From: Auanema rhodensis
Lineage: Eukaryota > Animalia > Nematoda
Reading direction: 5' to 3'
NCBI GenBank assembly: GCA_964057225.1
Contig: OZ059897.1
Coordinates: 10,106,001 to 10,170,000, forward strand
DNA: 64,000 nucleotides
Shown: positions 43,409 to 63,542 of the stretch, piece after piece
Numbering within the stretch: the first letter of the stretch is position 1
Layout of the letters: every line of letters begins with the position of its first letter
Made by a program: the position numbers and the translations under genes
Notes under the pieces: generated by a model
Told to the model about the DNA's origin: nothing
Database searches by the model: none
What the model saw: only the letters and a program-made list of their open reading frames with translations

Positions 43409-43693
43409 AACTCAGTTACGAAATTTACCCATTGCTTCTCAATTGTTTGTTGTTGAGAGCTTTGAATATTTTCCATTGCATGTATTTTCAATATACCGGT
43501 GTTATTGGTGAAAATATTGAAAACATTTCTGTATTAATTTGATAAAATTATTAGAATATGATAATATGGCTTACCCCTTTTTCCCTGATATACGATAATA
43601 AATTCCATATAATGTATCGTTTACCGTTTTCCTAAGATTTTCGTTTGATGCGATCCGTATGCAACATTTAGAACAGCAGAACATTGCCGCAGC

Positions 43694-44707
43694 AGTAGAG
43701 AGCCGTGCAAAATTTACTAACCACGCCCCCAAACAGCTGTCAAAAACATACTTTTGGGGGCGTCAGCTGCTAAAAACATACTTTTGGGGAGCGTCAGCTG
43801 TTAAAATCATATTTTGGCATCATGGTTCATGGATTTTCCTTTTTTAAATTTAAAAATCATGATTTAAAGCATGATTTTTTTTAAAATCAAATTTTAAATT
43901 TGTTTATTCAAATGTATGTATATAGTTTTAATTATTTTTAAATATATTAAGTAAAAATAAAAATTATAAATTTTAAATATTTAAATTATATTTAAATTTT
44001 ATATATATATAAATTATATTTAAACTTTAAATAATTAAATTATATTTAAATTTTATATATATAAATTATATTTAAACTTTAAATTTTATATATAAATTAT
44101 ATTTAAATATTTAAATATTTAAATATGTAAATTTGTTTTTAAATTTTATTTATTTCTTTATTTCTTTATTTCTTTATTAAATTTATTAATAATGTTTGTT
44201 TACTTATTTTGTTTATTTTTTATTGTATTGTGTTTGTATTGTTTTTATTTTAAAAAACAGTAAAATTTTTGCATGTATATCGTTTTGTTCACCGTACTTG
44301 TTATGGGTAATTCAATGGAACCCATATCGAAGGTTAATTCGATAAGAACGATATGAAATACCAAAATTTAATGGAACACATATCGAAAGTTAATTCGATA
44401 AGAACGATATGAAATAAAAAATTTAATGGAACACATATCGAAGGTTAATTCGATAAGAACGATATGAAATACCAAAATTTAATGGAACACATATCGAAGG
44501 TTAATTCGATAAGAACGACATTAAATTATTAATTTTTGAAATTACAAATTGTTATTAATTATATTTATTCTAACAAGTAAAGGTTTCAAATTATAATAAA
44601 AGATTAGTTTTAAACTTTATTTTACTAATATAACAATACAATAACTAAATAGAGCACACATTGAAGGTAAATACAATAAGATTAACAAACAGTTGCGCTG
44701 ACCTCAA
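43694..44707 (+). repeat. Maverick left terminal inverted repeat (~1014 bp)
   Basis: 44003-44707 is the reverse complement of 58427-59110; 43694-44005 matches 60996-61334. Confidence 0.95.
44314..44520 (+). repeat. 55-56 bp tandem repeat (~3.7 copies) inside the TIR; mirrored at ~58615-58820
   Basis: Unit atggaacacatatcgaaggttaattcgataagaacgatatgaaataccaaaattta starts at 44315, 44371, 44426 and 44482. Confidence 0.92.
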
Positions 44708-45176
44708 CGCACATCGATGGTTAATAAACACTAATAACTGCACTGTGGGGGTCTAAATATAGGATAATCATTTTAACATTTCAAAAGTTTTAGTTTCGTA
44801 ATATAATCATTATTAAATATTCAAGAATGAAATATTTTTTACATATAAAACGTTGGCAGTCATATGTTTTGTGGTACAATATGGGTTTAAAAGTATACTA
44901 TGATTAATATATGAGCTATTAAGCAAAGTTTAAAAAGCGTAAATGTTTTACAGAGATGGCTGTTGTTTATGGCACAAACGGTAAACAATAATGTTTAAAG
45001 AGATGTAAAAACTAATTAATATGCAGATTGTTTACAGGTTCAGAGTGCGCCAACTGCTGGCAACTGTCGATGAGATGAGTATATCTGCATAAATATGCTG
45101 TAAAATCTAATTAATAAAAGAATTTCATCAGCAAACTTGATTGTAACACAATGGGTTGTACTTTACAAAAATCTTT

Positions 45177-45186
45177 GTATAAAAGG
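45177..45186 (+). promoter_or_regulatory. Putative TATA box of the TIR-proximal gene
   Basis: GTATAAAAGG about 160 bp upstream of ATG 45337. Confidence 0.5.
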
Positions 45187-45336
45187 TTGGCAATTTTGCA
45201 ACATTTACATTTCAGCTCTGCCGACTATCCGAGGATCCGACGTTTCACCATCTCCTGCCACTCTTTGCCATTCGCCATAGACTGCTCCTCTCTGCAAGTT
45301 TGCCTTATATTTTAGAAAGTTGGATCTTTAGCGGAA

Positions 45337-45925
45337 ATGAAGCGTGCTGTACTTGCTGATGTGACAAATGTTGTGCGCAAATCGCCTGAACCTCAAGTAC
45401 CACGACCACCCACACCAGCTCCAAATTTTACAAGTTTTGGTATGAACCTTAACTTGTATTTTTTAAATCTTTAATTTAGATTCACCAATAAAGCAGATGG
45501 AGATTCTGAGAGAGAGCACTCCACCAAGGAGTGTATTAATGAGACCAATTTGTCTCTGCAAAACTTGTAGGGAATCATTGCAGGTTATAGACGAGTATCA
45601 CTGTTTCAGCCTCTGTATAAAGTGTAGAGGAAGGAATGATGCGTTGGGTCTTTTGAAGGAATTTCGTCACTATAAGCCCGAAAAGTTCTCTATTAATGTA
45701 AGCTTGCATATTTATTTATTTTCAATTTTATCATTTTTTTTTTAGATGCGCTCTTATAACACCATGACGTGCAAGCAATTGTTGAACAATATGGGCTATA
45801 TTGTTATATATGCAGATGAGGCTACTGTAAAGACTTTTGGTTATAAGCAGAATGTATTCTACTTTAAACTAAGTCCAGAAGCACTCAACCTGAACATGTT
45901 TATCCGCTTTGATCCTTCATTTTGA
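45337..45925 (+). CDS. Maverick spliced accessory gene (exons 45337-45439, 45480-45697, 45746-45925; 166 aa): D-box, CDK-type sites, CxxC/CxxC zinc finger
   Basis: GT-AG introns of 40 and 48 nt keep frame: MKRAVLADVTNVVRKSPEPQVPRPPTPAPNFTSFDSPIKQMEILRESTPPRS...CKTC...CIKC...FDPSF*. Confidence 0.7.
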
Positions 45926-46220
45926 CTACAACAAGCACAAATAGTACAATTGGCGTTTTATTCTTGTTTTGTTATGTGGCATTTTTATATTCTCAGCCGT
46001 AACATTTTTTTTTTCCAGCTCTTGCGAATATCCATCAATGGCTCATCAATTGAGGACGAATGATCAACCAACTGGTAAGAATTTGAAAATTTGAATAGTC
46101 TACATTTTTTTTTTCCAGGTTGAATTGTTGTTTGTATTTTGCTGGTTTTTTATTGTTACATTATGCGATATATCAAATAAATCATTTATTATAATTACAA
46201 TTGTTTATAACATTGAAAAA

Positions 46221-47288
46221 TTATACATTTAAATTTTCTGCATCTATCCATTCATTAAAGTTGTCGGGATATCCACTCCATTTTACAAATACTTGACGTT
46301 TACCGCTTCGAGTACGCTCTTTTAAAACTTTTTCTATATAGTACTTGTTACTTTTATTAGTAGCCAAGACAAGTTCAGGTTCGTAGAATATTCCCTTTAT
46401 ACGTTCACCATTATAATCTACAAGTTTATACACGGTTGGGTTTCCGGTTACAACCTCATCAATTGTGAATAGCTCCATTGTATATCCAGACTCGTAGCTT
46501 TTTTCAAAAGTACGCCTATTTTTGCTTATGCGAACAGTATCACCAATTTTAAAGCGGCTTTTAACAGCTGGTGCATATTCTTCAATGAATATATTTGCTT
46601 TAACATCAATGGGCCGCATTTTAATTGACCGATTATAAGATTTATTTATTCCTTCAACCAAGTCATCTAGGATATCAATCCATCGATGATTATTCTTGTA
46701 ATAGAGATATTTCATCATGCGTGTTTTTAAAGTTCTATTTGCTCGCTCCACCATTGCAGCCTTTTGTGGTGAACTTGTAGATCCGTGCAGTATGGCAAAC
46801 TTTTTGAATAGTTTTTCACAATGACTATTATAAAACTCTGTGCCATTATCAGTAATCAACTGAATTGGTATAAAATTCTTGAATAAATTTTCAAATGCAC
46901 TAGCAACCTCTATACCACCTTTAGTTTTCAAAGGCCTAACATATAACATGCGTGTATAAACATCAATCATGGTCAACATGTAAGCATAGCCGTCGTTTAA
47001 TTTTTTATATTTTTGCATATCAACCAAATCTGCTTGCACTGTTAGAAATCGACCACATCCTCTAGTCTTTCTAGTCTGCATACGCATTCTGGTTGGTTTA
47101 TGTCGTGTAAAAGTTTCAGAATCTTGCAAAAAATCATCAACTTGTACCTTTGAAATGCCATGTTTTCGTGCTTGCGATAATAAATTCTTGGCTGATGTAT
47201 ATGAAGCTGGGTGTTTTATATCGTAATAAATGCTCGCCAAAATATCATTTCCATAATCTAATGTAGAACCTTTTACGACCTTGGCCAT
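46221..47288 (-). CDS. Maverick retroviral-like (c-int) integrase with C-terminal chromodomain
   Basis: DDE: QADLVDM, ITDNGTEF, AMVERANRTLK; chromodomain YYIEKVLKER...VKWSGYPDNFNEWI; ATG 47288 preferred. Confidence 0.96.
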   Translation of the reverse strand: MAKVVKGSTLDYGNDILASIYYDIKHPASYTSAKNLLSQARKHGISKVQVDDFLQDSETFTRHKPTRMRMQTRKTRGCGRFLTVQADLVDMQKYKKLNDGYAYMLTMIDVYTRMLYVRPLKTKGGIEVASAFENLFKNFIPIQLITDNGTEFYNSHCEKLFKKFAILHGSTSSPQKAAMVERANRTLKTRMMKYLYYKNNHRWIDILDDLVEGINKSYNRSIKMRPIDVKANIFIEEYAPAVKSRFKIGDTVRISKNRRTFEKSYESGYTMELFTIDEVVTGNPTVYKLVDYNGERIKGIFYEPELVLATNKSNKYYIEKVLKERTRSGKRQVFVKWSGYPDNFNEWIDAENLNV

Positions 47289-47961
47289 TCTGTGAGTCTC
47301 CTTCTTGTGGTGTGTAATATGATTCGGCGGCAGTGTCAAAAGTCTTTGACCTTTTACTTTTGAGTGTACGAATCGGTGATGGTGAATATCGAATAACAGC
47401 TTTACGATGACGAGGCGTTCTAGGTAATATAGTAGAGTCCAAGTCTGTAACAGCCGGTTCAGCTCTAGTTACAACGTCAACTGAATCATTGTCAGTCGAC
47501 TCTCTTCTAGTTTGTTTCTTGTTAGAACTAGGTACGCCTTTACTGGCTAAAAACTTTGACAAGACTGAAAATCCATTGGGCTCCGTTTTTGTTTTATCCA
47601 ATACAAAATCTAAAATTTTTGTAATATTCGTGTTTGGTACAGCCTCATTATTAATCACAAGTTGATTACTCTTGTTTGTGCGCACCTCTGGAAATTTCTC
47701 CCACAAATTGTTATACTTTCTTGGCAACTTGTATTCTGGCAATAGAGGTGGATCAGCATTTTCCACTTGTACTGATATGGGCGCATCTATACTTTCTCTA
47801 TAGTTTTTGAGACGAGCAATCAAGTCTTCGTATAGTTCAGCCTTTTTATAGTCGGGTATAGCTCTATTTTCTCGTAAAAGCTTGAGCTCTGCATCAAACT
47901 TGTCTATATTAATTGTTTCCTCGTCGACAGGAATTAGTCGATATTTATGGTTGAGCTTCAT
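47245..47961 (-). CDS. Maverick ORF of unknown function, basic S/T-P-rich tail
   Basis: 238 aa intact ORF in the ATPase-INT run; PRTPRHRK...SPSPIR; ends QNGQGRKRFYIRLWK. Confidence 0.8.
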   Translation of the reverse strand: MKLNHKYRLIPVDEETINIDKFDAELKLLRENRAIPDYKKAELYEDLIARLKNYRESIDAPISVQVENADPPLLPEYKLPRKYNNLWEKFPEVRTNKSNQLVINNEAVPNTNITKILDFVLDKTKTEPNGFSVLSKFLASKGVPSSNKKQTRRESTDNDSVDVVTRAEPAVTDLDSTILPRTPRHRKAVIRYSPSPIRTLKSKRSKTFDTAAESYYTPQEGDSQNGQGRKRFYIRLWK

Positions 47962-48266
47962 GATTTAAAACCAAAATAGGCAATACCACATGTAACTATT
48001 GTTTTCAATTGTTTGTGTGAAAGCGTTGCCAATAATGATTTAGCCTTTTCCGGTGTGCGTATCAAAGCTATTTGACGTAATAATGAAGATATGGGCAAGA
48101 GGGTTTTATATTCCTTGTTAGTTAAAAGAAAATTATTATTTTTCACAATATTAAATACAATTTCAACAATAATTTCAATTTGTGCAAAAGAAAATGAGGA
48201 AACAGAACAAGGAGTTTTGGCGCAAGAAGACAAAAAGTTGAAATTTGACAAAATACGACCACTCAT
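47958..48266 (-). CDS. Maverick small ORF of unknown function (102 aa)
   Basis: Tightly packed; its stop overlaps the next start (ATGA). Confidence 0.7.
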   Translation of the reverse strand: MSGRILSNFNFLSSCAKTPCSVSSFSFAQIEIIVEIVFNIVKNNNFLLTNKEYKTLLPISSLLRQIALIRTPEKAKSLLATLSHKQLKTIVTCGIAYFGFKS

Positions 48267-48278
48267 TGAACAAGCACT

Positions 48279-48926
48279 TTAAACACTAAACACATTTCTG
48301 GCAACATAAACAATAGGGTTCTCCGCTGTTATAACAGATAGTATACGCTGCTTCTCACTTGTTAAAGGATGATTGTCAATCAGTAAATGACTATAGGGAG
48401 TAGACATTGCATCATCATACGCCTCTAGAGCATTTTTGAAACGTGGCCCAAATAATTGCTGCAGACAATTACGTATTTGTAATATATCTGAATGACTTTT
48501 CATCAGTATTATATATGTACTATTGATTCGACTGGTCCTGTCCAGTTGAAATGTCGCTTGCACAAGATTAAACACTGCCAAATTCCAGTGATGAGCCCAT
48601 ACTGTAAAAATGTTGTTGAGTAATTCCTTTGCTGCTTTATTCGATGAAAAAAAGTTCATCAAATCATCCAGCACTAGTATAGTATTTACTCCCTTTTGTT
48701 CTTTTATCAAATCAGGATCAGGAGGCCCTTGAATAATTATTAAACGCTCATCATTTATTGGTACACCTGACGATGACCCACATTGACTAAACCAGAATAT
48801 TCTATCAATGGGGACGTTGAAAAACTTTTCAGTATTTTCACATATGTGCTTTATGAGGGTTGTTTTACCGCATTGGGTAGCACCTATTACAGTTGTCTGA
48901 CTGGGTAGTTTGAAGCTGAAAACCAT
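48279..48926 (-). CDS. A32-like genome-packaging ATPase
   Basis: Walker A GATQCGKT, Walker B ILVLDD, AHHWNLAVFNLVQ, SRINSTYII. Confidence 0.95.
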   Translation of the reverse strand: MVFSFKLPSQTTVIGATQCGKTTLIKHICENTEKFFNVPIDRIFWFSQCGSSSGVPINDERLIIIQGPPDPDLIKEQKGVNTILVLDDLMNFFSSNKAAKELLNNIFTVWAHHWNLAVFNLVQATFQLDRTSRINSTYIILMKSHSDILQIRNCLQQLFGPRFKNALEAYDDAMSTPYSHLLIDNHPLTSEKQRILSVITAENPIVYVARNVFSV

Positions 48927-49005
48927 AATCAACCACTCGTAAATGTACCTAAAATGCAAATGATTTCATTTGCAATAGTGTACACGTATCAAGTGGTGGT
49001 TTGTC

Positions 49006-49863
49006 ATGGATGATTTTTACATTACTCTTCCATCATCAGTTGACTCTGAAAAAAGTAATACATCATCAGTGTTTCTTACCAGATTACCTGAAACACTAAG
49101 GCTACGCAATAATAGATATTGCATTGGGCTGACAGACATCATTTTTCCTTGTTCTATATTAAATGTTCAAAAAGATTTATCTTATACACTACGTTTTTCC
49201 AATAGAAAATTTATTCTACACTTGCCTAAAGGCAACTATGCAAATGGTGATGAAATAATACGCGGAATCAATGCTGGAAGAGAATCATTTATCGCCAACA
49301 ATACAAAGCCTCTTGGAGCTGAGGAAGAAGCACGTATAAAAAGTTTAATAGATAAAGATGAAGATGTAAAAAAATGGTATAATAATCGCCAGGCTGAGGC
49401 TAAGCTAGTGGAGGAAATGCTCGCAGACGCCACATTTCAGTTTAACAAAACATTGCAGCGCATAGAGTTTGTAACAAGCAAGCGACTATTAATGAATGCA
49501 ACGCTTGGTGATGATTTTGCATATTTTCTTGGTTTTGAAAATAAAAACATCAACGATACAATAATAGCCAGGCGTCCCATTGATTTTTCAAATAACATTA
49601 ATACAATGTATATATATTGTGATATTGTAGAATATTCCATTCTTGGTAATGTGAAAGCTAATTTACTTGCATGTTTGCCTGTACCACCTCCTACTGAATT
49701 TGGTAAAATGATTGCCAAAACATTTAATCCTATTCGTTATGTACCAATCACTAGACAAACACTCGATACCATACGTATTGAAATTTTAGATGAATTTGGT
49801 CGTCCTATGCAATTTAATTATGGTTCTACAGTTGTTACATTGCATGTTAAAAATATGAAATAA
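49006..49863 (+). CDS. Minor capsid protein (penton, single jelly roll)
   Basis: FYITLPS N-terminus, YIYCDIV...GNVKANLL, F.PIRYVP...I.IEILDEFGRP..F.YG..VVTLH typical of Polinton mCP. Confidence 0.88.
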   Translation: MDDFYITLPSSVDSEKSNTSSVFLTRLPETLRLRNNRYCIGLTDIIFPCSILNVQKDLSYTLRFSNRKFILHLPKGNYANGDEIIRGINAGRESFIANNTKPLGAEEEARIKSLIDKDEDVKKWYNNRQAEAKLVEEMLADATFQFNKTLQRIEFVTSKRLLMNATLGDDFAYFLGFENKNINDTIIARRPIDFSNNINTMYIYCDIVEYSILGNVKANLLACLPVPPPTEFGKMIAKTFNPIRYVPITRQTLDTIRIEILDEFGRPMQFNYGSTVVTLHVKNMK

Positions 49864-49868
49864 ACGTT

Positions 49869-50333
49869 TTATTCAACAGTTATACAATACCACATTTTTA
49901 TTTTCGAAGGTTTAAAAGATAGTTTAGGGCAGTTTTGTTTTTCGCTCGGCTCGTGTTGTGAATGTTCTCCGTCACTATTGCTGCGGCATCTTTTTGATTG
50001 GGTTGAATGTACAAACTCCTCAGCTTTTTCAAAGGGTTTGCTGGTATCATTTCCATCACCATCTTCACCATTCGTTCCATTATTATTATGAATACGCCGA
50101 ATATGACGCTCACAATTGAATCTTGTTCCAAAAGTTTCACTACAATGAGGGCACAAACGTCTACGAACACCATCCAAATGTCCATATTTTTGAATAAAGT
50201 CAGTATTGCTGATATAATTGTTACATATGGGTTGAATCCCTGCATGTCTTTTCAAAACGTGATCACTAAAATGCTTGGTTGAAGAAAATATTTCCTTGCA
50301 TGTACCACAATATTTGTTACATAAAAGTTCCAT
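49869..50333 (-). CDS. Maverick C2H2 zinc-finger accessory protein
   Basis: CGTCKEIFSSTKHFSDHVLKRH and CPHCSETFGTRFNCERHIRRIH; ATG 50333 preferred. Confidence 0.8.
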   Translation of the reverse strand: MELLCNKYCGTCKEIFSSTKHFSDHVLKRHAGIQPICNNYISNTDFIQKYGHLDGVRRRLCPHCSETFGTRFNCERHIRRIHNNNGTNGEDGDGNDTSKPFEKAEEFVHSTQSKRCRSNSDGEHSQHEPSEKQNCPKLSFKPSKIKMWYCITVE

Positions 50334-50374
50334 TAGAGGAAAATGAAAAACGACCACACGCAATCAACCCACTT

Positions 50375-50581
50375 TTATATAATGAGCAATAATATGACTA
50401 GTGTTGTACAAAAGCCCAATCCCAATGCTATACCTTTAATAAATGGCACTGAAATACATTTCAACATTCTCCTGTATAAAGGCGCTGGTTTAGATTGCTC
50501 CAACGTGTATTTGACACATAATTCACAGTGACAAGGAATATTCATAACTGACCACGTAATGTAGCAGGTTATTAATGACAA
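50375..50581 (-). CDS. Small putative tail-anchored membrane protein (start 50581 or 50545)
   Basis: CHCELC motif; C-terminal hydrophobic GIALGLGFCTTLVILLLII; fills the gap between PRO and ZnF. Confidence 0.55.
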   Translation of the reverse strand: MSLITCYITWSVMNIPCHCELCVKYTLEQSKPAPLYRRMLKCISVPFIKGIALGLGFCTTLVILLLII

Positions 50582-50586
50582 ATTTC

Positions 50587-51042
50587 TTATATAGTAGCCA
50601 ATTTATAGTCGAATACTTTATGCATAAACGCTTTAATAAAGACATCATCATTTTTCAATAGTTTAAAAAATGAACAAATGCTTTCAAATGAATTACCAGC
50701 CGACAACATTAGTATTACAAATACCACATAGCCACCACAAGTGTATTCAATTAAACGTTGTGGTTTGCAAGTATTAATTTTTACCTTTTTATATTTGGCC
50801 AGATAATTTTGAATGTACTTGTTCATTTTATATCCCAAGCTACAGAAAAAATAGGCTTGCTTGTTACGGACAAAGATGACCTGCCAATGTGTGCCTGGCT
50901 TATCATGTGTGTCAGTATTTACGACAAGTGCAAAGTTTTTACGACGCGTTTTGGGTAGAGTATCAGCGCTATATACACCGAGGAATAGTTTCCGAGTGCT
51001 GGGGACAGATTGCAATAGTGATACTATTTCAGACGAATACAT
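50587..51042 (-). CDS. Adenain-like (C5) maturation cysteine protease
   Basis: FLGVYSAD, VNTDTHDKPGTHW, PQ....YTCGGY; His and Cys present, but the usual acidic triad residue appears as FFCSLG. Confidence 0.92.
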   Translation of the reverse strand: MYSSEIVSLLQSVPSTRKLFLGVYSADTLPKTRRKNFALVVNTDTHDKPGTHWQVIFVRNKQAYFFCSLGYKMNKYIQNYLAKYKKVKINTCKPQRLIEYTCGGYVVFVILMLSAGNSFESICSFFKLLKNDDVFIKAFMHKVFDYKLATI

Positions 51043-51093
51043 TTTAGTAGAATGATCTAGTGTAACTTTTGTATTGCGCGCGTGCGGTTCGAT

Positions 51094-51546
51094 ATGCCGC
51101 ACCTCCTTTTGGATGTCAACTCTATTCAATGGACAACACTTTTAAATCAACAAATGGGTGGCGCCCCATTTAGCGGAATGATGTTTCAACGTGGAATGCA
51201 GAGGGGTCATGGTTTGGGTGGTATTTTGGCAACTTTGGCATCATTTCTACCACGCATCATTCAATCACCTATAGCCCAAAATCTCATCAATGCCGGAAGA
51301 AACGCCTTATCCAGGGCTGTAAGCAAAAGTCCAGTTGTAAATTCACCTCTTGGCGGACAGTTGCTGAAAACTGGTAATGAAATTGTCGATGGGGTGCTGA
51401 AAGGCGATAATATCAAGGAAACTCTTAAAACAGCCGGCCGGCAAGCTATACGAGATCTTACCGGCTTGGGCAAACGGCGACGACGCAAAACCACAAAACC
51501 TCATAAGCGGTTGTGGATCACTCGTGAGCGGTCGTTTCACATTTAA
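51094..51546 (+). CDS. Gly-rich basic putative virion core/membrane-active precursor
   Basis: QRGHGLGGILATLASFLPRII amphipathic helix; LTGLGKRRRRK basic tail; abuts the MCP ATG. Confidence 0.75.
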   Translation: MPHLLLDVNSIQWTTLLNQQMGGAPFSGMMFQRGMQRGHGLGGILATLASFLPRIIQSPIAQNLINAGRNALSRAVSKSPVVNSPLGGQLLKTGNEIVDGVLKGDNIKETLKTAGRQAIRDLTGLGKRRRRKTTKPHKRLWITRERSFHI

Positions 51547-52881
51547 ATGGCTAAATTGATAGATTCAAAATCAGCACAAGCCCTTTTACCTAATATCAAC
51601 TATGGTGATATACCAGCGTCGGCATTAGGTGTAGAGTCTACTCGTACTGTACAAGTCCCTTTGAAAAATACGTTTCTTCCTCAAGGACCATGGGAATTTG
51701 TTATAGCTCAAAATTCCAAATCATTCCTCAATCTGAGAAGATGTTGGTTGAATGTAAAATTTAAAATTGTAACCACAAACGGTGATCCAGTACCAGACAA
51801 CCTTGTTTTTGCACCATGTCAACAATTTGCTGCCAGTTTAATACATTCGTATCATTTGAAAATTGGTGATGTTAGCGTGTATGACTCTACCGTGAATCAT
51901 GCCTATAAAACATATATCGAGAATATTTTAATGTATAGCAACGATGTTAAAGAGAGCAAACTTGCCATATCAGGCTATTATGCTGATAGATATATAGATA
52001 ATGCATCCAGTGCTGGATTTAGAACGCGTCAAGCACTTGTAAAAAATGGCATATTGTGTGAGATGGCTGCTCCCGTCAGTATCGACCTATTTAATCAAGA
52101 GCGACTGTTTGTAAACTATTCAAAAATGGAGCTAACTGCATATCCAAACCGTGATAACTTTTTAATTGACACTCTAGGCTGGAATAATGAAAACAAGGAT
52201 ACTACATTAAAGGAGGAGTTTCCAAATTTGAAAGTAGATATCAGCGATGTACATTTGCTCATTCAAGAGTTTGATCTAAACGCTGGATTAGCTATGGCTA
52301 TAGAAGATAAACTCGCAAAGGATCGAATACACTACCCCATGACATCAGTGAAAATGCGCTCTTATTTCATAGAAGGAGGCCGCTTGGATTCACCTAATAA
52401 TATATTATTCACGTCTCACACACCAAAACGTGTTGTAGTAGGTCTTGTTGGCGCACACGCCTATAATGGTACTTTTAAACATTCGCCATTCAACTTTAAA
52501 CCGTTTGATTTGAAAAATATATACTTGACGCTCAACAATAGGGTAATACCTACCCGTCCTTATAATTTAGAATGGCGATCTTCCTATGCCACAGCATATA
52601 TTGACATGCTGGAAGGTTTGGGGCTTGGTCGTACAGATTCATCCAATGGTATTACACCAGCAATGTATAAAGTTGGTTTCACATTTTTTGTATTTGATAT
52701 TAGTCGTACTGTGCATTCGTCAGAGTTATTTGATGTTATACGACAAGGTAATGTAGCCTTGAAATTGGAATTTGGTCAACAAACGCCGCAAGAGGGCTTA
52801 TATGCAATTGTTTATGCAGAGTATGACTCTATTCTTTCCATTGACAACAATCGTGCTCCATATATTGATACCAGTTTGTAA
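51547..52881 (+). CDS. Major capsid protein (double jelly roll)
   Basis: 444 aa; HAYKTYIENILMY, DLFNQERL, PKRVVVGLV...YNG....PFNFKPFDL, YAEYDSILSID are Polinton MCP hallmarks. Confidence 0.94.
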   Translation: MAKLIDSKSAQALLPNINYGDIPASALGVESTRTVQVPLKNTFLPQGPWEFVIAQNSKSFLNLRRCWLNVKFKIVTTNGDPVPDNLVFAPCQQFAASLIHSYHLKIGDVSVYDSTVNHAYKTYIENILMYSNDVKESKLAISGYYADRYIDNASSAGFRTRQALVKNGILCEMAAPVSIDLFNQERLFVNYSKMELTAYPNRDNFLIDTLGWNNENKDTTLKEEFPNLKVDISDVHLLIQEFDLNAGLAMAIEDKLAKDRIHYPMTSVKMRSYFIEGGRLDSPNNILFTSHTPKRVVVGLVGAHAYNGTFKHSPFNFKPFDLKNIYLTLNNRVIPTRPYNLEWRSSYATAYIDMLEGLGLGRTDSSNGITPAMYKVGFTFFVFDISRTVHSSELFDVIRQGNVALKLEFGQQTPQEGLYAIVYAEYDSILSIDNNRAPYIDTSL

Positions 52882-53019
52882 TGTATGTAATAAAATTCTT
52901 TAAAAGATTTAAGAATAAAATTTATTAATACAACTATTTTTAAAAATAAATACATGTACAATGATAAAATTTTATAAATACAAATATATACAAGATAAAA
53001 ATTTATAAATTCAAATATA

Positions 53020-56000
53020 TTATTCACAATAACCGTAGGGTAAAGTACTATAATCTTGAAGATAACAAAGTTTATCCATTACGACTCTAGTACTTTTTGT
53101 CATATCCATTGTGGATATGGCACCGAGTTGCCTCTTTAACAAGGTTGTGTTGGTTTTTAAAACCAATTTCTCTCCATCCATAACGAGACCGCGAACCAGT
53201 CGCTCCATACTTTCAAAGTTTACCACTGACGCTGCCGTGTGGTCCAACGTCTGTAAATTATAAAATTATTTGAAAAGTCAAAGCTCGTACTTACCACTCC
53301 CTTTGCCTTTGTTACATATTTTACATCACCAGCTGCATTTACAAGTTTATAACTATAAACTTTTGCCGCTGGTGACACAAACTTGGTCATTGACCAACCA
53401 TCGGGTATTTCAGAGGTTAGTTTACCTAACCATTCACCCTTCATATCCTCAATTGGATCTGGCTCATCCAGGCACCTTTGATAAATTAGTGAATCCGTGT
53501 CTGAATAATGTAAGTTTAAATTGAATACAAAGTATAACATTACCTGTATACACCAAATTCTTTCCAATTTTCTCCATTGCCTTATACAATAGTAGCCTTG
53601 CATGAGCGGTTGTATAGGCCGCAATAGCTACATTTGTAAAAGGCGGTGGTGCCAAATGTGAATCCTCTGGTACTGTTGTGCAGTACGCAACATTATCCAC
53701 AATTTTGAACCCAGTGAGTTCCCTTGCAGGATCAGTAATGATCCTACCAATTTCTGGGTCCTCAACACCAATAATCTTGGTTTGGGCTTTATCAGGTCTT
53801 TGACCCATTTTACCCCAGACACTATAAGCAAATTTGTAATGTATTGTTTTAAAAAGTTTACAAACCTATTTAGCTGCAGTTTGGCAATGCTACGCATGGC
53901 AGCATTCTTCTCACTTTTATTGCTCTCCAGAGCAACACCAGTGTTCTCCTCGTGCTCTTGGAGATAAATCACCTGTAAAATTCTATTTAATGTGATACTT
54001 TTGTTAAAACATACCTTTTCTTCCTCTGTCATGTTTGGCTTTGGCCAGCCCGACGCCTCTTGTTTAATTTTTATGTACTTTTGTACAAACTCTTTAAACA
54101 GGCCGCCTTGTTGCCATTCTTCCCAGTGCCACACCTCATGCACATTAAGCACTTTATAGCCACGTTGTATGGCACACTCGAGCTCAACATGTGTCACGGT
54201 TAGATGCAGCTTTCTAGCATTTACATCATTCTGGTGCTCACATGTTACATTTTTACTTTTGACTGCACAAGTGCGGCAGTTTGTAAAAATAAGTTTACCG
54301 GCAATACGTGTGCCTAATACAGGGTACAGCAAATTTGTGGGTGCAAGCACGTCACATTTTACTAGCCCCTTGTATGGGCAACATGTCTCAAAGCTTTTGA
54401 AACCCTCAGTAATAACTTTGGGATTACCTACAGGGTAATAGGCATCAAAAGCGGTGACATATGGATATAGTGAACAAAAGTCCACATACTCGAGCGAGTA
54501 TCTATCCGAAGCTTGTGCCAAAAGCTTATATGTCTGGGTGCGGCCACCGGTAAAGGCATCTCTAGGTGCCAAGCGTGTAACAACATTTGTTTCACGCATA
54601 AATTTCGCCATTTCTTCATTGGCCGAAATTTGTGCATTAATTTCGTGCTCCCACACTGTGGTAACACTAATGCCTTGGCTTTGAATTGCTTCAAGCCTTT
54701 TCATGGTTTTATCATAAACCTAAATTTTAAAAATTAAAATGATTAAAAAAGTCACAATTACCTCTTCCATTGTTTCACCATTTCTGCCTGGTGCTATAGC
54801 GCTCTTGTTGGTGCACTGGGGGCAACCATGGTAAATACAACCATTAATCTACAAAAATTTGCACTTTTTACATTTATTACAAATTACTCACCTCATAGCC
54901 ATGATTGGCAACGGGGTCATAAGCATCGAGTAGATAGCGATGGCCATCTACTCTCACTGCAAATTCACCACCATTAAGCTTATGCATTAATGGGCGGCCC
55001 AATCCTTGTTCTAGCCATTTTATATACTTTATGGCTATTATGCTCTGCTTTTGACCGGCATAATAACCAGTCTCGGGCAGAATACCCACTTGGTTCTCTT
55101 TAATGTGGTTCATTTTCAACTGTAATATACTAGTTTTGAAAATGCTTGTATTTGAAAAAACTTGCCTGGAATAAAGAGAAACTGGCAAATGTCATACACT
55201 GTATGACAGGGTTCCAGCCAGTGGTGGCGGTTGCCAACTTCATGTAAACTTTCATACAGTTGGTTAAAATACGGACATCTGTCCTACAATATTCCAAAAG
55301 CTCTTCATCAAAATCAAACGCTCTTTGATTACGCTCTTCATACCAAATATTGAATGAAGCTAGGTCTTCTGCTTTCATTCTAGCAGTACAATAGTACTGT
55401 TTTGGTGGTAAAGATGGTAACACTTTGCCATAATTTATTGGATGGTTAAAGAGGTAAGGAAACTGTCCTTTACTCATATAAGGTACACCAAATGCCTTGG
55501 GTAACGCTGATAGGGGTAAAGGCACTAATAAATAACTATCTTTAAAATATAAATGATTAAATTTTTGACCTCTTAAAGGCTTGACAACCATGCTTATAAT
55601 CTTGGTCCCATTTAAAATTGGATCAGGATATATACCACGGTTTATCAGCCTAGACACCAAGAAATGTATGTCAAAGCGTGAACCATTATGCGCAATCAAA
55701 ATTGCATTATCATTCTCAACAGAGTTGAGTAACCAATCAAGGAAACGATCTGTTACAGACCATTCACTATCACCTTGTTGATACCCAAAATGGCCCTCCT
55801 TGGTTGTGCATTTTTCACATGAGTTGGCATCTATACAACTTTCACAAAATTTATTATACACAACCATATTGGGCCATTGTTCATCTGCATATTCATGAAC
55901 ATTTGTACCGCTTTTTAACACAACCGTTTCAAAGTCATAGAATATAATCTTAAACAAGTAAGCATTACACTTGTAAAGATGTAAAATACAAACCTTGTAT

Positions 56001-58219
56001 TTTTCTTGCCTCTTTTTTAACTGATCCTTCTTCTTGTCGTTAGGTGGTACCCAACAACAAGAATGATCTTCAGGCTTTGTTTGTCCACACTTTTTGCAAA
56101 ATTTCTCATTGCAATTGTGCGGTCTATCTGCACGCACCCTGTGATAATGATCACAGTTTTCACATGTCTGAATTTAGTCTTGTAAAATTTTATATATATT
56201 TTTTAAATTACCTTAAACATTCGACATGTTTTTCTAATATGCCTGTCAAAGCATTGACGAGTTTTAAACAAAACTCTACAACTATCACATCTTATGCTAC
56301 TTTCAACCACATTTTCCATCGAATTACATTTTAAGGTGTGGCATTTCTTACACTTGGCTTTACATCTATGCAACACTGTTTTGTAAGATAATTTACAGTG
56401 TTGGCATATAATACCATCAAAAATCTGTGATCTACTACAAGTTGTAATACAGTCATAATGATTATTTCGGTAGCCTAGTGTTACCACTTTGCTAGCCGTT
56501 TCATTAAAGATACGCTGAATAGCGTACATACGCTGTCCAGGTGGCCTAGCGTATACTACAAACTTATAGTCTGTATTACAACTTGCAATAATATTTAAAT
56601 GGTTCAAATTATAATTTGGTAAATGTACAGAAATACCACACCTATTCAATAAATTGATATGATGTGGTTGATTTGGCAACAAGATGTAGTTGCGACGAAG
56701 ATTTTGAATCCTCCGCTTCTCAACAACATCTTCTGCTGCCTCTTCATCGGCTCTCCACATTCCCACAACTGCTGCTCTAGCCAGGCAATGTGTATCAGTG
56801 TTCTCAATTGTGCCAGGTATTTTGAGTTCGGCATCAAAATAGAAACCAACTCTACCTTCACCAGGCATCAGGCTTGGTTGCACTGGTCTCTCATCAAACA
56901 CATACATTTCAATATTCATTGCCTGGCTAATTACAGCCTCTCGCTTTGATTGCTGCACCTTGCTGATGGCATTCATGATGGCAACGCCATCCAAATGCTC
57001 CCTTCTACGGAAATCCATAAATATGGATCCCTTTTCAAAGGATGGGTGCTCTATTGATAAACAAAATAGCGCTTTTTGTTTATCTGGCACACCACTTTCA
57101 GCAAGGCACCGATCAAGAAACTCATTAAATAGCCGCGGCATGACAACATGCATTGGCTCATTAATGGCTTCCAAATGTGGGAACGTGAGCGATCTAACGA
57201 CCACGTTGGTGAACCGACCAGTTCGTTTTATGCGTCGGTGTGACCACTATAATACATATTTTTTATAATGGTTATACGCTTTTAATTTAAATATAAATAA
57301 TTTTTGTTTATAACTTTTAATAAATTTACTTTTCTTTAAATTATTTTTATATTCTTTTATTAAAATTAAAAGGTATTTGATTTTTAAATATAAAGATTTT
57401 TTTTTTTATCAACTTTGAAAAAACTTTTATAAACATTTGTTAATGTTTAAAAATTAATGAGATGGTGTTTTATTATTTTACTAGTTCAAAATGTTTGAAA
57501 TATTTATAGTTTGTAAGAATTCAAAATTGGTTGAAAGAAAGATAGATAGTGAGATGAAATGTAAAGATTTTAAAATGAATGCTGTTCAAAAGAATGAATA
57601 TGTAAATTTCAAAATACTTGCAATTTGTTTGATAAAAGATATAGATTGAGATGAAATGTAAAGATGAGAAAGAGAGAATTTTATGAATGCAATTGAAAAA
57701 GAGAAATAAATTTCAAAATGTTTTCAAAATATGCAACTGGAGCAAGAGAAAATTTCATGTTTCAAAAGATATATTATGAAATGATATGTAAATAAAAGAT
57801 CGCACCTCTATTTTACAGACATCGTTGAATGCCGCTCCATATCCGACTTGCCCTCCACTGGTTGATGGGGTAGCGGGATCCCATTCTCTTAAAAAGAAAA
57901 AACTAATTGTTATAATTTTTAATATCGCTTACTCATCACTGTCATCCAAGGTTATTACTTCAATAACCCTTGATGATGAGGGCCCACTGTTAAAAGTGGG
58001 TGATGTGGGCTCACAGAGCTCGATCCCACCAGCCTCGGTAAACTTTATACGTTTACTAAAAAAACAAAATATATATAAAGATTCAAAATATTGTTAAATT
58101 ACCTGAGCTGATTAATCTCTTCATAATCAAATCCTAGCTCTTCACATAAACGTTTATAACTGAAAAAAGAAAAAGTTTACAAACAAATAAACAAAAAGAC
58201 ACAACCTATTAGCAGCCAT
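53020..58219 (-). CDS. Protein-primed DNA polymerase B, 14 exons, 1369 aa (TP region, OTU-like, zinc fingers, 3'-5' exonuclease, Vsr-like insert, polymerase)
   Basis: Exons 58219-58206, 58159-58103, 58055-57933, 57887-57806, 57246-56212, 56167-55994, 55948-55166, 55119-54892, 54848-54762, 54719-54015, 53972-53866, 53821-53544, 53500-53295, 53250-53020 sum to 4110 nt; motifs YDFET, AHNGSRFD, YCRTDV, DFCSLYP, KLQLNSVWGK, YTDTDS, KVY, TLPYGY; the first four exons are less certain. Confidence 0.92.
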
Positions 58220-58426
58220 TGTACCTTGATATAATGAATATATCAGTCTACACATTGCTGTTGGCATTGTAATTTGTTATGTAACATGGATTTGGGTACA
58301 GCTGTCAAAACTAGCAGTTGCGATAAACTTTAAAATAAATAAGCTTATTGAATACATCTGTTTTTATTGTCCCCATCGGATTAATTTTTGTTATTAGTTC
58401 TTATTAAATTAACTTTATGCGTTTCA

Positions 58427-59110
58427 TTGAGGTCAGCGCAACTGTTTGTTAATCTTATTGTATTTACCTTCAATGTGTGCTCTATTTAGTTATTGTATTG
58501 TTATATTAGTAAAATAAAGTTTAAAACTAATCTTTTATTATAATTTGAAACCTTTACTTGTTAGAATAAATATAATTAATAACAATTTGTAATTTCAAAA
58601 ATTAATAATTTAATGTCGTTCTTATCGAATTAACTTTCGATATGTGTTCCATTAAATTTTGGTATTTTATATCGTTCTTATCGAATTAACCTTCGATATG
58701 TGTTCCATTAAATTTTGTATTTCATATCGTTCTTATCGAATTAACCTTCGATATGTGTTCCATTGAATTTTGTATTTCATATCGTTCTTATCGAATTAAC
58801 CTTCGATATGTGTTCCATTGAATTACCCATAACAAGTACGGTGAACAAAACGATATACATGCAAAAATTTTACTGTTCTTTAAAATAAAAACAATACAAA
58901 CACAATACAATAAAAAATAAACAAAATAAGTAAACAAACATTATTAATAAATTTAATAAATAAATAAAATTTAAAAAACAAATTTACATATTTAAATATT
59001 TAAATATTTAAATATAATTTATATATAAAATTTAAAGTTTAAATAAAATTTATATATATAAAATTTAAATATAATTTAAATATTTAAAGTTTAAATATAA
59101 TTTATATATA
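58427..59110 (-). repeat. Maverick right TIR, inner part (cut by Tc1 at a TA)
   Basis: Reverse complement of 44003-44707 with few differences. Confidence 0.95.
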
Positions 59111-60469
59111 CAGTCATGTGTAAAAGAAAAAGGGCAAAACTTTCGAATGGTCTCCTGAAGTAGTGAGACTACAAAAAATTAAAACTATGAAAAATAGAAA
59201 TGGTGAGCAGACCACAAATCGAAAAATGCAAAAAAAACCAAAAAATTAAGACTTTATTAATATTTTGTCGGATACCCGAAATTATCAATCACAGCTTTGA
59301 GCCTTCTATTCATCGAATTGACGAGCTTCTTCAAAATACCCGGAGAAGTTTCTCGCCAGAGGATTCTTAGGCATCTGAACTTCTCGTCCTTGTTCGATGA
59401 CGGAAATTGAGCCGCCCTTCTTCCCAAATCTCTCCATAGATGTTCGATCGGATTCAGATCGGGCGATTGACTAGGCCAGGGTAAGAGAGTGACCCTATTC
59501 TGCTGAAACCACTGTTTAGTTGAATGAGCAGTGTGCTTTGGGTCGTTGTCCTGCTGGAAGATGAATCTATTCCGCGTGCGGAATCGATCCAAAGCATACG
59601 GCAGGAAGACTTCAGAGAGAATATTCTGATAGTCGGAAGCACACATGCGTCCTTCAATCCTAAACAGTGGTCCAACTTCCTCGCTGGTGAAACAACCCCA
59701 CACCATTACGTTTCCACCTCCATGTTTGAAGGAAGGCTTTAAATAACGGTGGTTGTAACGCTCACCAACGGGCCTTCTGACAAAGCCAGGTCCATCATTG
59801 CCAAAAAGGCAGAATTTGCTCTCATCTGTGAAGATGACTCTGCTCCAATCTTCTGGTGTCCAATGAAGATGAGCCCGAGCAAATTCTAGCCTCGCTTGCC
59901 GGTTCTTGGCACTAACAAGCGGTTTGATGGCAGGTCTTCTTGCTCTCAAACCACGCTTCAGGAGACGCCTTCTAATATTGCTAGGGTCAAGATTGACCCT
60001 ATACATCATAGTAAGGTGTTCTGTCAGCTGTTTTGACGTCAATTCTGGATGACGTTGAGCCAAGCGGACCATGGTGTTGTCCTGTGATGGTGTGGTCTTC
60101 GGTGGGCGCCCTGGTTTTGTCTTCTTTATCATTGCTACACCTTGGCTGTGATCCTTGATGATGGCTTGAACGCAGCTCTTCGAGATAGCCGTAAAAGCAG
60201 CAATTTTTCGGGTTGCAAACCCTTCGTCTTTGAGCCTGAGGACTGTCTCCCTCATCTCGTTGCTGTATCTTCTGCCTTGAACCATCTAAATTTGCATATT
60301 AAAAATGAAGCTGAATCATTTTAATTTCCAAAATAATACATTTCAAAGTTAGTTTTAAAAAATGAATTCAGCTCCATTTTTTAGCAACATTTCAGATTCC
60401 TAAATTGTAGTCTGAGCTCCAGATTCTAATATTTTCTAAATCTTGCCCTTTTTCTTTTACACATGACTG
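59111..60469 (-). mobile_element. Tc1-family DNA transposon, intact copy (1359 bp)
   Basis: 27-bp TIRs CAGTCATGTGTAAAAGAAAAAGGGCAA with TA on both sides. Confidence 0.97.
59257..60285 (-). CDS. Tc1 DD34E transposase (342 aa)
   Basis: GRPPKT, FTDESKF, QQDNDPKH, SPDLNPIEHLW; 34 residues between the second D and E. Confidence 0.97.
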   Translation of the reverse strand: MVQGRRYSNEMRETVLRLKDEGFATRKIAAFTAISKSCVQAIIKDHSQGVAMIKKTKPGRPPKTTPSQDNTMVRLAQRHPELTSKQLTEHLTMMYRVNLDPSNIRRRLLKRGLRARRPAIKPLVSAKNRQARLEFARAHLHWTPEDWSRVIFTDESKFCLFGNDGPGFVRRPVGERYNHRYLKPSFKHGGGNVMVWGCFTSEEVGPLFRIEGRMCASDYQNILSEVFLPYALDRFRTRNRFIFQQDNDPKHTAHSTKQWFQQNRVTLLPWPSQSPDLNPIEHLWRDLGRRAAQFPSSNKDEKFRCLRILWRETSPGILKKLVNSMNRRLKAVIDNFGYPTKY

Positions 60470-60995
60470 TATGTGCTGCTGCTATGAAAGAATCTCTTTC
60501 AATTCAGGGAGTTAATATTTTTTTTAATTACTTAGATCTTTTCAGATCTCTAGTATTAAGCTTCTCCATAAGTTTTATCCTTGCTGGAATGAGGGGTTGC
60601 CTTACATATTAGTATCTAGGTTGGTAAATCATGAAACGGGTGATGACAATGAGCACATTAATAAGTTAAAGGATGTAATAGGAAAAGGGAATCGAGGGAT
60701 AATTGAGGTATCTTTATTTTTTCTAACTTTATTATTTTTGGTTTGATTATATTCACAGGGGCCTAAAAGAGAAACCTATGGCGTATATAACGTTATAGGA
60801 AAAAAAGAGACATAGGGAGATTTTATATTACAGATGTGTTACATAGAGCCTTGTTTGCACAGTAAGTTTTTTTTTTCGCACAAGCAATACTTTCGATATA
60901 GCTCGCAAGATGGCAATCACAACATCCACTTGAAGACATTGGAAGGTACGGAAATCATGATGAGAGCATCCTGGAATATTGCGAACATAGCTGCG

Positions 60996-61334
60996 AGTAG
61001 AGAGCCGTGCAAAATTTACTAACCACGCCCCCAAACAGCTGTCAAAAACATACTTTTGGGGGCGTCAGCTGCTAAAAACATACTTTTGGGGCGCGTCAGC
61101 TGTCAAAAACATATTTTTGAGCGTCAGCTGTTAAAATCATATTTTGGGATCATGGTTCATGGATTCTCCTTTTTTAAATTTAAAAATCATGATTTAAAGC
61201 ATGATTTTTTTTTAAAATCAAATTTAAATATGCTTTTTCAAATGTATGTATATATTTTTAATTATTTTTAAATATATTAAGTAAAAATAAAAATCTTAAT
61301 TTTAAATATTTAAATTATATTTAAATTTTATATA
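60996..61334 (+). mobile_element. Displaced and inverted outer end of the Maverick right TIR
   Basis: AGTAGAGAG terminus preceded by GCTGCG, the reverse complement of the left TSD CGCAGC. Confidence 0.92.
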
Positions 61335-62677
61335 CAGTCATGTGTAAAAGAAAAAGGGCAAAACTTTCGAATGGTCTACTGAAGTAGTGAGACTACAAAA
61401 AATTAAAAACTATGAAAAATAGAAATGGTGAGCAGACCACAAATCGAAAAATGCAAAAAAAACCAAAAAATTAAGACTTTATTAATATTTTGTCGGATAC
61501 CCGAAATTATCAATCACAGCTTTGAGCCTTCTATTCATCGAATTGACGAGCTTCTTCAAAATACCCGGAGAAGTTTCTCGCCAGAGGATTCTTAGGCATC
61601 TGAACTTCTCGTCCTTGTTCGATGACGGAAATTTTCTTCTTCCCAAATCTCTCCATAGATGTTCGATCGGATTCAGATCGGGCGATTGACTAGGCCAGGG
61701 TAAGAGAGTGACCCTATTCTGCTGAAACCACTGTTTAGTTGTGCTTTGGGTCGTTGTCCTGCTGGAAGATGAATCTATTCCGCGTGCGGAATCGATCCAA
61801 AGCATACGGCAGGAAGACTTCAGAGAGAATATTCTGATAGTCGGAAGCACACATGCGTCCTTCAATCCTAAACAGTGGTCCAACTTCCTCGCTGGTGAAA
61901 CAACCCCACACCATTACGTTTCCACCTCCATGTTTGAAGGAAGGCTTTAAATAACGGTGGTTGTAACGCTCACCAACGGGCCTTCTGACAAAGCCAGGTC
62001 CATCATTGCCAAAAAGGCAGAATTTGCTCTCATCTGTGAAGATGACTCTGCTCCAATCTTCTGGTGTCCAATGAAGATGAGCCCGAGCAAATTCTAGCCT
62101 CGCTTGCCGGTTCTTGGCACTAACAAGCGGTTTGATGGCAGGTCTTCTTGCTCTCAAACCACGCTTCAGGAGACGCCTTCTAATATTGCTAGGGTCAAGA
62201 TTGACCCTATACATCATAGTAAGGTGTTCTGTCAGCTGTTTTGACGTCAATTCTGGATGACGTTGAGCCAAGCGGACCATGGTGTTGTCCTGTGATGGTG
62301 TGGTCTTCGGTGGGCGCCCTGGTTTTGTCTTCTTTATCATTGCTACTCCTTGGCTGTGATCCTTGATGATGGCTTGAACGCAGCTCTTCGAGATAGCCGT
62401 AAAAGCAGCAATTTTTCGGGTTGCAAACCCTTCGTCTTTGAGCCTGAGGACTGTCTCCCTCATCTCGTTGCTGTATCTTCTGCCTTGAACCATCTAAATT
62501 TGCATATTAAAAATGAAGCTGAATCATTTTAATTTCCAAAATAATACATTTCAAAGTTAGTTTTAAAAAATGAATTCAGCTCCATTTTTTAGCAACATTT
62601 CAGATTCCTAAATTGTAGTCTGAGCTCCAGATTCTAATATTTTCTAAATCTTGCCCTTTTTCTTTTACACATGACTG
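61335..62677 (-). mobile_element. Tc1 copy 2, defective (frameshifted transposase 61482-62493)
   Basis: Same TIRs as copy 1; 11-bp deletion after QQDNDPKH and a net 6-bp deletion after DLGRR. Confidence 0.95.
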
Positions 62678-63203: not shown

Positions 63204-63542
63204 AGTAGAGAGCCGTGCAAAATTTACTAACCACGCCCCCAAACAGCTGTCAAAAACATACTTTTGGGGGCGTCAGCTGCTAAAAACATACTTTTGGGGC
63301 GCGTCAGCTGTCAAAAACATATTTTTGAGCGTCAGCTGTTAAAATCATATTTTGGGATCATGGTTCATGGATTCTCCTTTTTTAAATTTAAAAATCATGA
63401 TTTAAAGCATGATTTTTTTTTAAAATCAAATTTAAATATGCTTTTTCAAATGTATGTATATATTTTTAATTATTTTTAAATATATTAAGTAAAAATAAAA
63501 ATCTTAATTTTAAATATTTAAATTATATTTAAATTTTATATA
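63204..63542 (+). mobile_element. Duplicate of the displaced Maverick TIR end
   Basis: Appears identical to 60996-61334, offset 2208 bp. Confidence 0.92.

What the first reader, a model, noticed from the sequence alone, without database searches (positions are those of the whole stretch)
43694..61334. Apparently complete, coding-intact nematode Maverick/Polinton provirus (~15.75 kb reconstructed)
Seen: AGT terminus, ~1-kb TIRs, matching 6-bp TSD, and uninterrupted INT, ATPase, mCP, PRO and MCP, plus a pPolB that is intact after splicing. Known: this is the full Polinton replication and morphogenesis set. Inference: a recent insertion whose family may still form virions or move horizontally. 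Six additional ORFs are unassigned or accessory.
Basis: partly seen in the sequence, partly recalled or inferred. Interest (0 to 1): 0.8.

Follow-up and report, generated by a model that had tools for sequence, protein, structure and literature searches.

The report
Intron-rich, fusogen-less nematode Maverick provirus
A virus-like jumping element in what is likely a roundworm genome keeps all its core genes open, but its DNA-copying gene is cut by at least nine predicted host-type introns, it has no membrane-fusion gene of the kind known from its roundworm relatives, and this copy's right end has been split and flipped beside a second transposon, so this copy is likely immobile.

Summary
The Maverick/Polinton is real: AGT terminus, ~1-kb TIRs, 6-bp target duplication, and open INT, ATPase, mCP, PRO and MCP (double jelly-roll model). 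It is not complete as it lies. The right TIR is split at a duplicated TA by a Tc1; its outer third is flipped and tandemly repeated. The TIRs differ by 1.7%, and copy-specific differences look near-neutral, so this copy is probably a resting, immobile provirus of a multi-copy family still under purifying selection.

The unusual part is pPolB: nine 42-46-nt introns (one GC-AG, two inside catalytic motifs), perhaps four more at the 5' end. One RNA-like contig end fits one splice. The two closest relatives stop at one of these intron positions. There is no room for a fusogen. The papers read call Maverick core genes intronless and nematode Mavericks fusogen-bearing. This scan has noted intron-split pPolBs (3-4 introns) in other genomes. 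The protease's catalytic-acid column is not acidic. Virions and horizontal transfer are untested.

Verdict: new variant of a known kind, moderate interest.

The parts
43688..43693 (+). Left target-site duplication, CGCAGC
43694..44707 (+). Left TIR, 1,014 bp; AGT terminus, 28-31-bp and 55-56-bp subrepeats
45337..46123 (+). Spliced accessory transcript in the left 'cargo' position; short Cys-rich product predicted, no Pfam hit for the two exon frames scanned
   Evidence: Four short skips in RNA-like run X12, none in the three DNA runs; sequence; Pfam
46221..47288 (-). Integrase (rve DDE plus chromodomain), 355 aa, intronless
47245..47961 (-). ORF, 238 aa, unassigned
   Evidence: no Pfam or PHROG hit
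47958..48266 (-). ORF, 102 aa, unassigned
   Evidence: no Pfam or PHROG hit
48279..48926 (-). Packaging ATPase, 215 aa; Walker A, Walker B, Gln and Arg motifs present
   Evidence: (weak ATPase hits)
49006..49863 (+). Probable minor capsid protein, 285 aa
   Evidence: Homologue in the same gene block in L002 and L003; single-sequence fold uninformative, pLDDT 41
49869..50333 (-). C2H2 zinc-finger ORF, 154 aa
   Evidence: below curated cut-offs
50587..51042 (-). Adenain-like protease, 151 aa; His and Cys columns kept, catalytic-acid column not acidic
   Evidence: same letters in run X1 record 3
51094..51546 (+). Conserved 150-aa ORF with QRGxG motif and basic tail; likely a protease-processed core protein (PW-like by position)
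   Evidence: Homologues between mCP and MCP in L002 and L003
51547..52881 (+). Major capsid protein, 444 aa, double jelly-roll, intronless
   Evidence: AlphaFold pLDDT 79; Foldseek Sputnik MCP E=2e-15, TM 0.66
53020..57246 (-). pPolB, ten coding pieces. Predicted introns: 56211-56168, 55993-55949, 55165-55120 (GC donor), 54891-54849, 54761-54720, 54014-53973, 53865-53822 (motif B), 53543-53501 (motif C), 53294-53251
   Evidence: RNA-like loose end at 54850
57806..58219 (-). Four small exons, phase-compatible with the 5' end of pPolB through introns of 46, 47, 45 and 559 nt (predicted only; could be a separate gene)
58427..59110 (-). Inner part of the right TIR (pairs with 44004-44707; 9 substitutions in 683 columns), ending in the duplicated TA
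59111..60469 (-). Tc1-like transposon copy 1; 27-bp TIRs, TA on both sides, open 342-aa transposase (59257-60285)
60470..60995 (-). Former right flank, now inverted; its last 6 bp are the right target-site duplication
60996..61334 (+). Outer 339 bp of the right TIR with the terminus, now in direct orientation (8 substitutions in 310 columns, one 28-bp indel)
61335..64000 (-). Tc1 copy 2 (61335-62677, small deletions), an identical second copy of flank plus outer TIR (62678-63542), and the start of Tc1 copy 3

Best explanation
This is an integrated Maverick/Polinton, likely of a nematode, whose core genes are open, whose polymerase gene is split by nine predicted spliceosomal introns, which has no fusogen, and whose right end has been split and flipped beside Tc1 copies, so this copy is likely immobile while its family is likely still functional.

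Family mechanism (inferred from known Polinton biology): host RNA polymerase II and the spliceosome make pPolB mRNA. pPolB copies the excised linear DNA by protein priming from the AGT termini. INT integrates it with a 6-bp duplication. MCP, mCP, ATPase and PRO would package it in a non-enveloped particle.

History of this copy (inferred): insertion; accumulation of 1-2% divergence; a Tc1 insertion at a TA in the right TIR with a second Tc1 about 525 bp outside the element; inversion of the Tc1-bounded segment; tandem duplication between the direct Tc1 repeats. Its genes could still act in trans.
For: All 9 gaps are 42-46-nt, AT-rich (14-26% GC) GT/GC..AG segments. Exon phases close with no stop. 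Intronless control ORFs hold 2 such segments in 4,365 nt. At the gaps the pieces align to intronless C. brenneri and C. angaria pPolBs with little or no gap. A loose end in RNA-like run X12 matches the next exon at 12 of 14 letters and the intron at 3 of 14. The two closest relatives (56-57%) end with Val 3-5 residues after the 54014 intron position; 6 of 150 relatives end with Arg at the motif-B position. A second study's contigs span 53587-56575 with no gaps. The TIR halves overlap by exactly TA. The largest unassigned stretch is 631 bp, against 730 aa or more for a fusogen (cut-off in PMC10748475). Nematode clade support is 0.97.
Against: X12 is only guessed to be RNA. What appears to be the same contig keeps the neighbouring intron, and no pPolB joint is listed in its joint table, so full splicing was not seen. 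Intron sharing in relatives is read from protein ends, not DNA; 52-127 of 150 relatives read straight across each position. The right-end structure was not checked against reads, and the repeated units are identical (0 of 865, 0 of 458), as an assembly duplication would be. Only 40 of 743 listed differences were visible, chosen by support. The non-acidic PRO column is unexplained.
Confidence: 0.75

Rival explanations
1. The right-end rearrangement is an assembly artefact and the element is complete in the real chromosome.
For: The region is built from near-identical Tc1 repeats. The duplicated units are identical. No read evidence covers the end.
Against: The break carries the TA duplication expected from a true Tc1 insertion. 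Tc1 copies 1 and 2 differ by 4 substitutions and 3 indels, so at least two real copies exist. An artefact would explain the tandem repeat more easily than the split TIR.
Confidence: 0.12
2. The family is a live, particle-forming virus that moves between species.
For: Full morphogenesis set, with purifying selection on MCP (10 synonymous of 11 listed differences). Near-identical DNA in 11 runs holding half or more of the sampled words, under 5 coded organism labels. At least two sequence classes in one run (0 against 36 differences over 420 bp).
Against: No particle data. The labels are coded and may be hosts, associates or environmental samples of one nematode; flanks were not compared. No fusogen. 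The PRO acid column deviates. RNA cover is patchy (14 of 30 bins).
Confidence: 0.3
3. pPolB is a decayed pseudogene and the 'introns' are chance splice-like signals around frameshifts.
For: One junction needs a GC donor. Published surveys treat such fragmentation as decay (PMC10748475, PMC8097293).
Against: 9 of 9 gaps are intron-like and the motifs stay in register. 5 of 6 listed pPolB differences are synonymous. Diverged copies keep the acceptor and the exon while the intron letters change (loose ends).
Confidence: 0.03
4. The host is another small-intron invertebrate, not a nematode.
For: No call names the host. The best named MCP hits are equally distant: a nematode at 28% and a moth at 27%. 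Acceptors are less strict than TTTCAG.
Against: pPolB sits in a clade whose four named members are all nematode proteins. The 40-49-nt introns fit nematodes (recalled).
Confidence: 0.1

Closest known systems
Nematode Polintons/Mavericks (Jeong et al. 2023, PMC10748475; Widen et al., bioRxiv 10.1101/2022.07.12.499685)
   Same: Core set pPolB, INT, ATPase, PRO, mCP, MCP; TIRs; 6-bp duplication; a spliced accessory gene between the left TIR and INT; pPolB in the same clade as Caenorhabditis and Steinernema proteins.
   Different: No fusogen and no ORF of 300 aa or more for puORF. pPolB has 9-13 introns where Widen et al. call the core genes intronless. No wasp- or krma-sized cargo. Closest named pPolB is 44-45% identical over the exon searched; closest named MCP is 28%.
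Intact vertebrate Mavericks (Barreat and Katzourakis 2021, PMC8097293)
   Same: Size range, TIR length, 6-bp duplication, a small ORF in the capsid block, purifying selection on core genes.
   Different: Their 'intact' class requires intronless ORFs and flanking TIRs; this copy fails both.
Introner-bearing polinton-like viruses of dinoflagellates (PMC12166617)
   Same: Introns inside polinton-like elements.
   Different: Those are mobile introner copies. The 12 short introns here show no significant similarity to one another (9% of shuffles reach the top score).
Tc1/mariner composite rearrangements; compare Polinton-linked inversions at C. elegans eri-6/7 (bioRxiv 10.1101/2024.01.15.575659)
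   Same: Transposon-bounded inversion that leaves Polinton TIR sequence as direct repeats.
   Different: Here Tc1 copies bound the inversion and the Polinton is the element disrupted.

Membership tests
Polinton/Maverick | Protein-primed PolB with exonuclease and polymerase motifs | tested here: met
   DNA_pol_B_2 hits; Exo I-III and Pol A found; Pol B and C each interrupted by an intron and in register with relatives
Polinton/Maverick | Retroviral-like integrase | tested here: met
   rve plus chromodomain above cut-off; DDE motifs
Polinton/Maverick | TIRs of 100-1,500 bp and a 5-8-bp target duplication | tested here: met
   About 1-kb TIR sequence at both ends and CGCAGC; the right TIR is secondarily split
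Polinton/Maverick | Length 13-25 kb | tested here: met
   15,754 bp by arithmetic
Polinton/Maverick | Double jelly-roll major capsid protein | tested here: met
Polinton/Maverick | Single jelly-roll minor capsid protein | tested here: inconclusive
   Syntenic homologues; fold model pLDDT 41
Polinton/Maverick | Packaging ATPase | tested here: met
   Motifs; weak Pfam hits
Polinton/Maverick | Adenain-like protease with full catalytic triad | tested here: inconclusive
   Peptidase_C5 E=0.001; His and Cys kept, acid column not acidic
Polinton/Maverick | Particle formation or transposition | not testable with these tools
   No assay available
'Intact' Maverick in the sense of PMC8097293 | Conserved ORFs intronless | tested here: not met
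   Nine introns in pPolB
'Intact' Maverick in the sense of PMC8097293 | TIRs flank the element in inverted orientation | tested here: not met
   Outer right TIR is displaced and in direct orientation
Fusogen-bearing nematode Mavericks | Fusogen (MFUS-1/PC1), 730 aa or more | tested here: not met
   No ORF or gap large enough; largest unassigned stretch 631 bp
Fusogen-bearing nematode Mavericks | pPolB in the nematode clade | tested here: met
   Tree of 60 of 153 rows on one exon, support 0.97; names
Fusogen-bearing nematode Mavericks | Intron-bearing cargo region between left TIR and INT | tested here: inconclusive
   A spliced gene is present, but the region is 1.5 kb, not GC-rich, and of unknown origin
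pPolB2 class (HNH or VSR insertion) | Placement in the pPolB2 clade | not tested
   A VSR-like GCxxHG motif is present, but also in four named nematode relatives and 54 of 75 long hits, so it does not assign a class; no reference pPolB2 sequences were in hand

The most novel reading that the evidence does not exclude
A widespread but overlooked, non-enveloped branch of nematode Polintons has put its replicase under host splicing control (up to 13 introns, one GC-AG, two in catalytic motifs) while leaving capsid, ATPase and integrase genes intronless. The introns would shield the early gene from germline silencing of intronless transcripts, or gate replication by intron retention. ORF-based surveys have counted such live elements as pseudogenes.
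Probability: 0.25. Interest if true: 0.75.

Novelty: new variant of a known kind. Interest (0 to 1): 0.5.

Why it matters
Published censuses define live Mavericks by long uninterrupted ORFs and treat fragmented pPolB as decay (PMC10748475, PMC8097293). A conserved family with an intron-rich pPolB means such counts miss functional lineages. The missing fusogen shows that envelopment is not shared by all nematode-clade Mavericks, which bears on how they spread. As a candidate for a currently active provirus this particular copy is weak, because its right end is rearranged.

Tried and rejected
No host assembly is held, so copy number, the empty site and the far flank were not examined. The TIRs and right end were not tested against sequencing runs, so whether the rearrangement is in the chromosome stays open. 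No run on record as RNA was listed as a holder; X12 is a guess.

IMG/VR viral contigs gave no relative with MCP, the MCP alignment or PRO. None of 8 window proteins is in the protein collection by exact match. The ESM Atlas gave no answer. The mCP single-sequence fold was too poor to search. Pfam gave no hit for the 238-, 102-, 285-, 150- and 444-aa ORFs; PHROGs gave none for the first four of these. The scan's own notes hold nothing for this genome or for the MCP sequence.

Rejected: a GT donor for the third intron (leaves a stop). Rejected: an introner origin for the introns. Rejected: assigning pPolB2 from the VSR-like motif. Rejected: reading five organism labels as horizontal transfer (labels coded, flanks untested). 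Rejected: replicative or hybrid-end transposition of one Tc1 as the cause of the inversion, since that predicts opposite orientations and the Tc1 copies are in the same orientation (reasoning). Exon coordinates for the pPolB 5' end and the left gene were off by a few bases and were redone or read.

Not held: Kapitonov and Jurka 2006 and the 2024 MMBR review. Supplements of PMC10748475 were not read; its Table S1 may already list this family.
Full report
Ends. The element starts with AGTAG at 43694 after CGCAGC. Self-comparison pairs 44004-44707 with 59110-58427 as an inverted repeat, but pairs 43694-44005 with 60996-61334 as a direct repeat. The two halves overlap by exactly TA. Read on the minus strand, the outer piece ends in ACT followed by CGCAGC, matching the left duplication (chance about 5e-5). 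Between the halves lie a 1,359-bp Tc1-like element with an open transposase and about 525 bp of former flank. A second Tc1 in the same orientation follows, then an identical repeat of flank plus outer TIR and a third Tc1 start. The simplest history (inferred) is a Tc1 insertion into the TIR, a second Tc1 just outside, inversion of the bounded segment, then tandem duplication. The 15.75-kb figure is right as arithmetic (15,754), but the copy has no correctly placed right terminus. No reads were laid on the ends, so an assembly artefact is not excluded, above all for the tandem repeat.

Genes. INT, ATPase, the mCP candidate, PRO and MCP are single open frames. INT has rve and chromo domains. ATPase motifs are present. 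The MCP model (pLDDT 79) matches Sputnik, iridovirus, PBCV-1 and mavirus capsids (best E=2e-15). mCP rests on syntenic homologues only. PRO keeps His and Cys, but the acid column is not acidic; a contig in another run has the same letters. The 150-aa ORF is conserved in L002 and L003. After assignment the largest free stretch is 631 bp, which leaves no room for a fusogen.

pPolB. Ten stop-free pieces are separated by nine segments of 42-46 nt with 14-26% GC; eight have GT..AG ends and one GC..AG. Phases close throughout. With X at each break the 1,284-position query aligns over about 1,220 residues to uninterrupted relatives (31%, E 1e-160 or better). At the breaks it is in register with C. 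brenneri and C. angaria pPolBs. Two introns fall inside motifs B and C. Intronless control ORFs hold 2 such segments in 4,365 nt, against 10 candidates in the 4,227-nt pPolB region. Homology runs upstream of the first in-frame ATG, and four further small exons join in phase through introns of 46, 47, 45 and 559 nt; this 5' model is a prediction. The 12 short introns are not copies of each other.

Evidence from runs. Twelve of 14 listed runs, in 4 studies, hold the stretch or part of it; none is on record as RNA. Four of the 14 were laid on the interior. The three DNA runs cover 30 of 30 bins and contain several sequence classes. RNA-like run X12 covers 14 of 30 bins and alone shows four 40-48-nt skips in the left gene, three of them listed as GT..AG. 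In pPolB it has a 14-letter loose end that matches the next exon at 12 letters, the best plus-strand place in the laid stretch, and the intron at 3. What appears to be the same contig keeps the adjacent intron. This is a weak hint of partial splicing, not proof. Of 743 differences 40 were shown; 32 fall in the ORFs and exons scored and none makes or removes a stop. Core genes give 18 synonymous of 22 (neutral share 0.21; p=2e-9). Where the window's letter is missing from all three DNA runs the split is 7 synonymous to 10 non-synonymous, against 14 to 1 elsewhere (p=0.003). Three of the ten lie in core genes (two in ATPase, one in MCP). That pattern suggests drift in this copy, with the caveats that rows were chosen by support and contigs drop rare variants. 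The TIRs differ at 17 of 993 columns and the Tc1 copies at 4 of 1,342, so the Tc1 events are likely younger than the insertion.

Relatives. One pPolB exon found 3,911 relatives; the best 150 were examined. Named top hits include C. brenneri (two), C. angaria, Steinernema, a beetle and a ribbon worm. In a tree of 60 of 153 rows (the best-scoring plus selected named and short rows) the window groups with unnamed close relatives and the four nematode proteins at 0.97. The two nearest relatives end with Val just after the 54014 position. Six of 150 end with Arg at the motif-B position, as the window's own read-through does. Between 52 and 127 of 150 read straight across each position. MCP relatives at 49-73% are all unnamed; named ones are 29% or less. 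This is a distinct lineage.

Literature. PMC10748475 (parts 1-4 of 7 and passages) reports 266 nematode Polintons, lists the fusogen among their proteins and reads fragmented ORFs as pseudogenization. Widen et al. (passages) call the core genes intronless. PMC8097293 (passages) saw no introns in intact vertebrate elements. PMC8502044, PMC12166617, bioRxiv 2024.01.15.575659 and PMC12055998 were seen as passages; the last relays that intronless genes are silenced in the C. elegans germline. Nine searches (listings, plus the papers named) showed no description of an intron-rich animal pPolB. Two key papers were not held and no supplements were read. This scan's notes record intron-split pPolBs in other genomes, so the trait is not unique to this element; the count here is higher than the 1-4 coding introns in those notes.

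Verdict. A member of the Polinton/Maverick family, but neither an 'intact' element by the published test nor a member of the fusogen-bearing nematode group. It works, by inference, like other Polintons, with the added dependence on host splicing. New variant of a known kind; interest 0.5.

Noticed in passing
window 45337-45925 (+): The left gene's predicted product begins with a D-box-like RxxLxDxxN stretch and several SP/TP sites (motif meanings recalled), followed by a Cys cluster. Removing the 43-nt segment 45567-45609, as run X12 does, leads to an early stop, while keeping it leaves a frame of about 166 aa. This suggests two isoforms (read by hand).
   Followed up: partly
window 50587-51042 (-): The protease column matching adenain's catalytic Glu, and Asp in L002 and L003, is not acidic. 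An independent run shows the same letters, so it is not private to this copy.
   Followed up: partly
window 42175-42369 and 42908-43120: Two older fragments of the same Maverick terminus (88-92% identical), one truncating a second, different Tc1-like ORF (42465-43103). The site has been hit repeatedly by both elements.
   Followed up: partly
window 43672-43693 and 60970-60995: The two flanks share GAACAT/ATGTTC, so the pre-insertion site sat inside a small imperfect palindrome; may be chance.
   Followed up: no
window 28331-32608 (+): Host gene with an exon matching SLC4A11 (E=1.7e-13); a usable marker for naming the host.
   Followed up: partly
window 56883-57240 and 57263-58194: DNA runs X1 and X6 show joints skipping 356 bp, and X1 one skipping 930 bp, of the pPolB 5' region, so internally deleted copies of the family likely exist.
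   Followed up: no
L002:7-2482 and L003:32-3146: Distant metagenomic relatives keep the mCP, small ORF and MCP block, but place or orient the protease differently.
   Followed up: partly
proteins P0038, P0027, P0065, P0054, P0070, P0057, P0047, P0055, P0155: Distant unnamed pPolBs stop at or near motifs B and C in a way that suggests introns there, so these positions may be recurrent insertion sites.
   Followed up: partly
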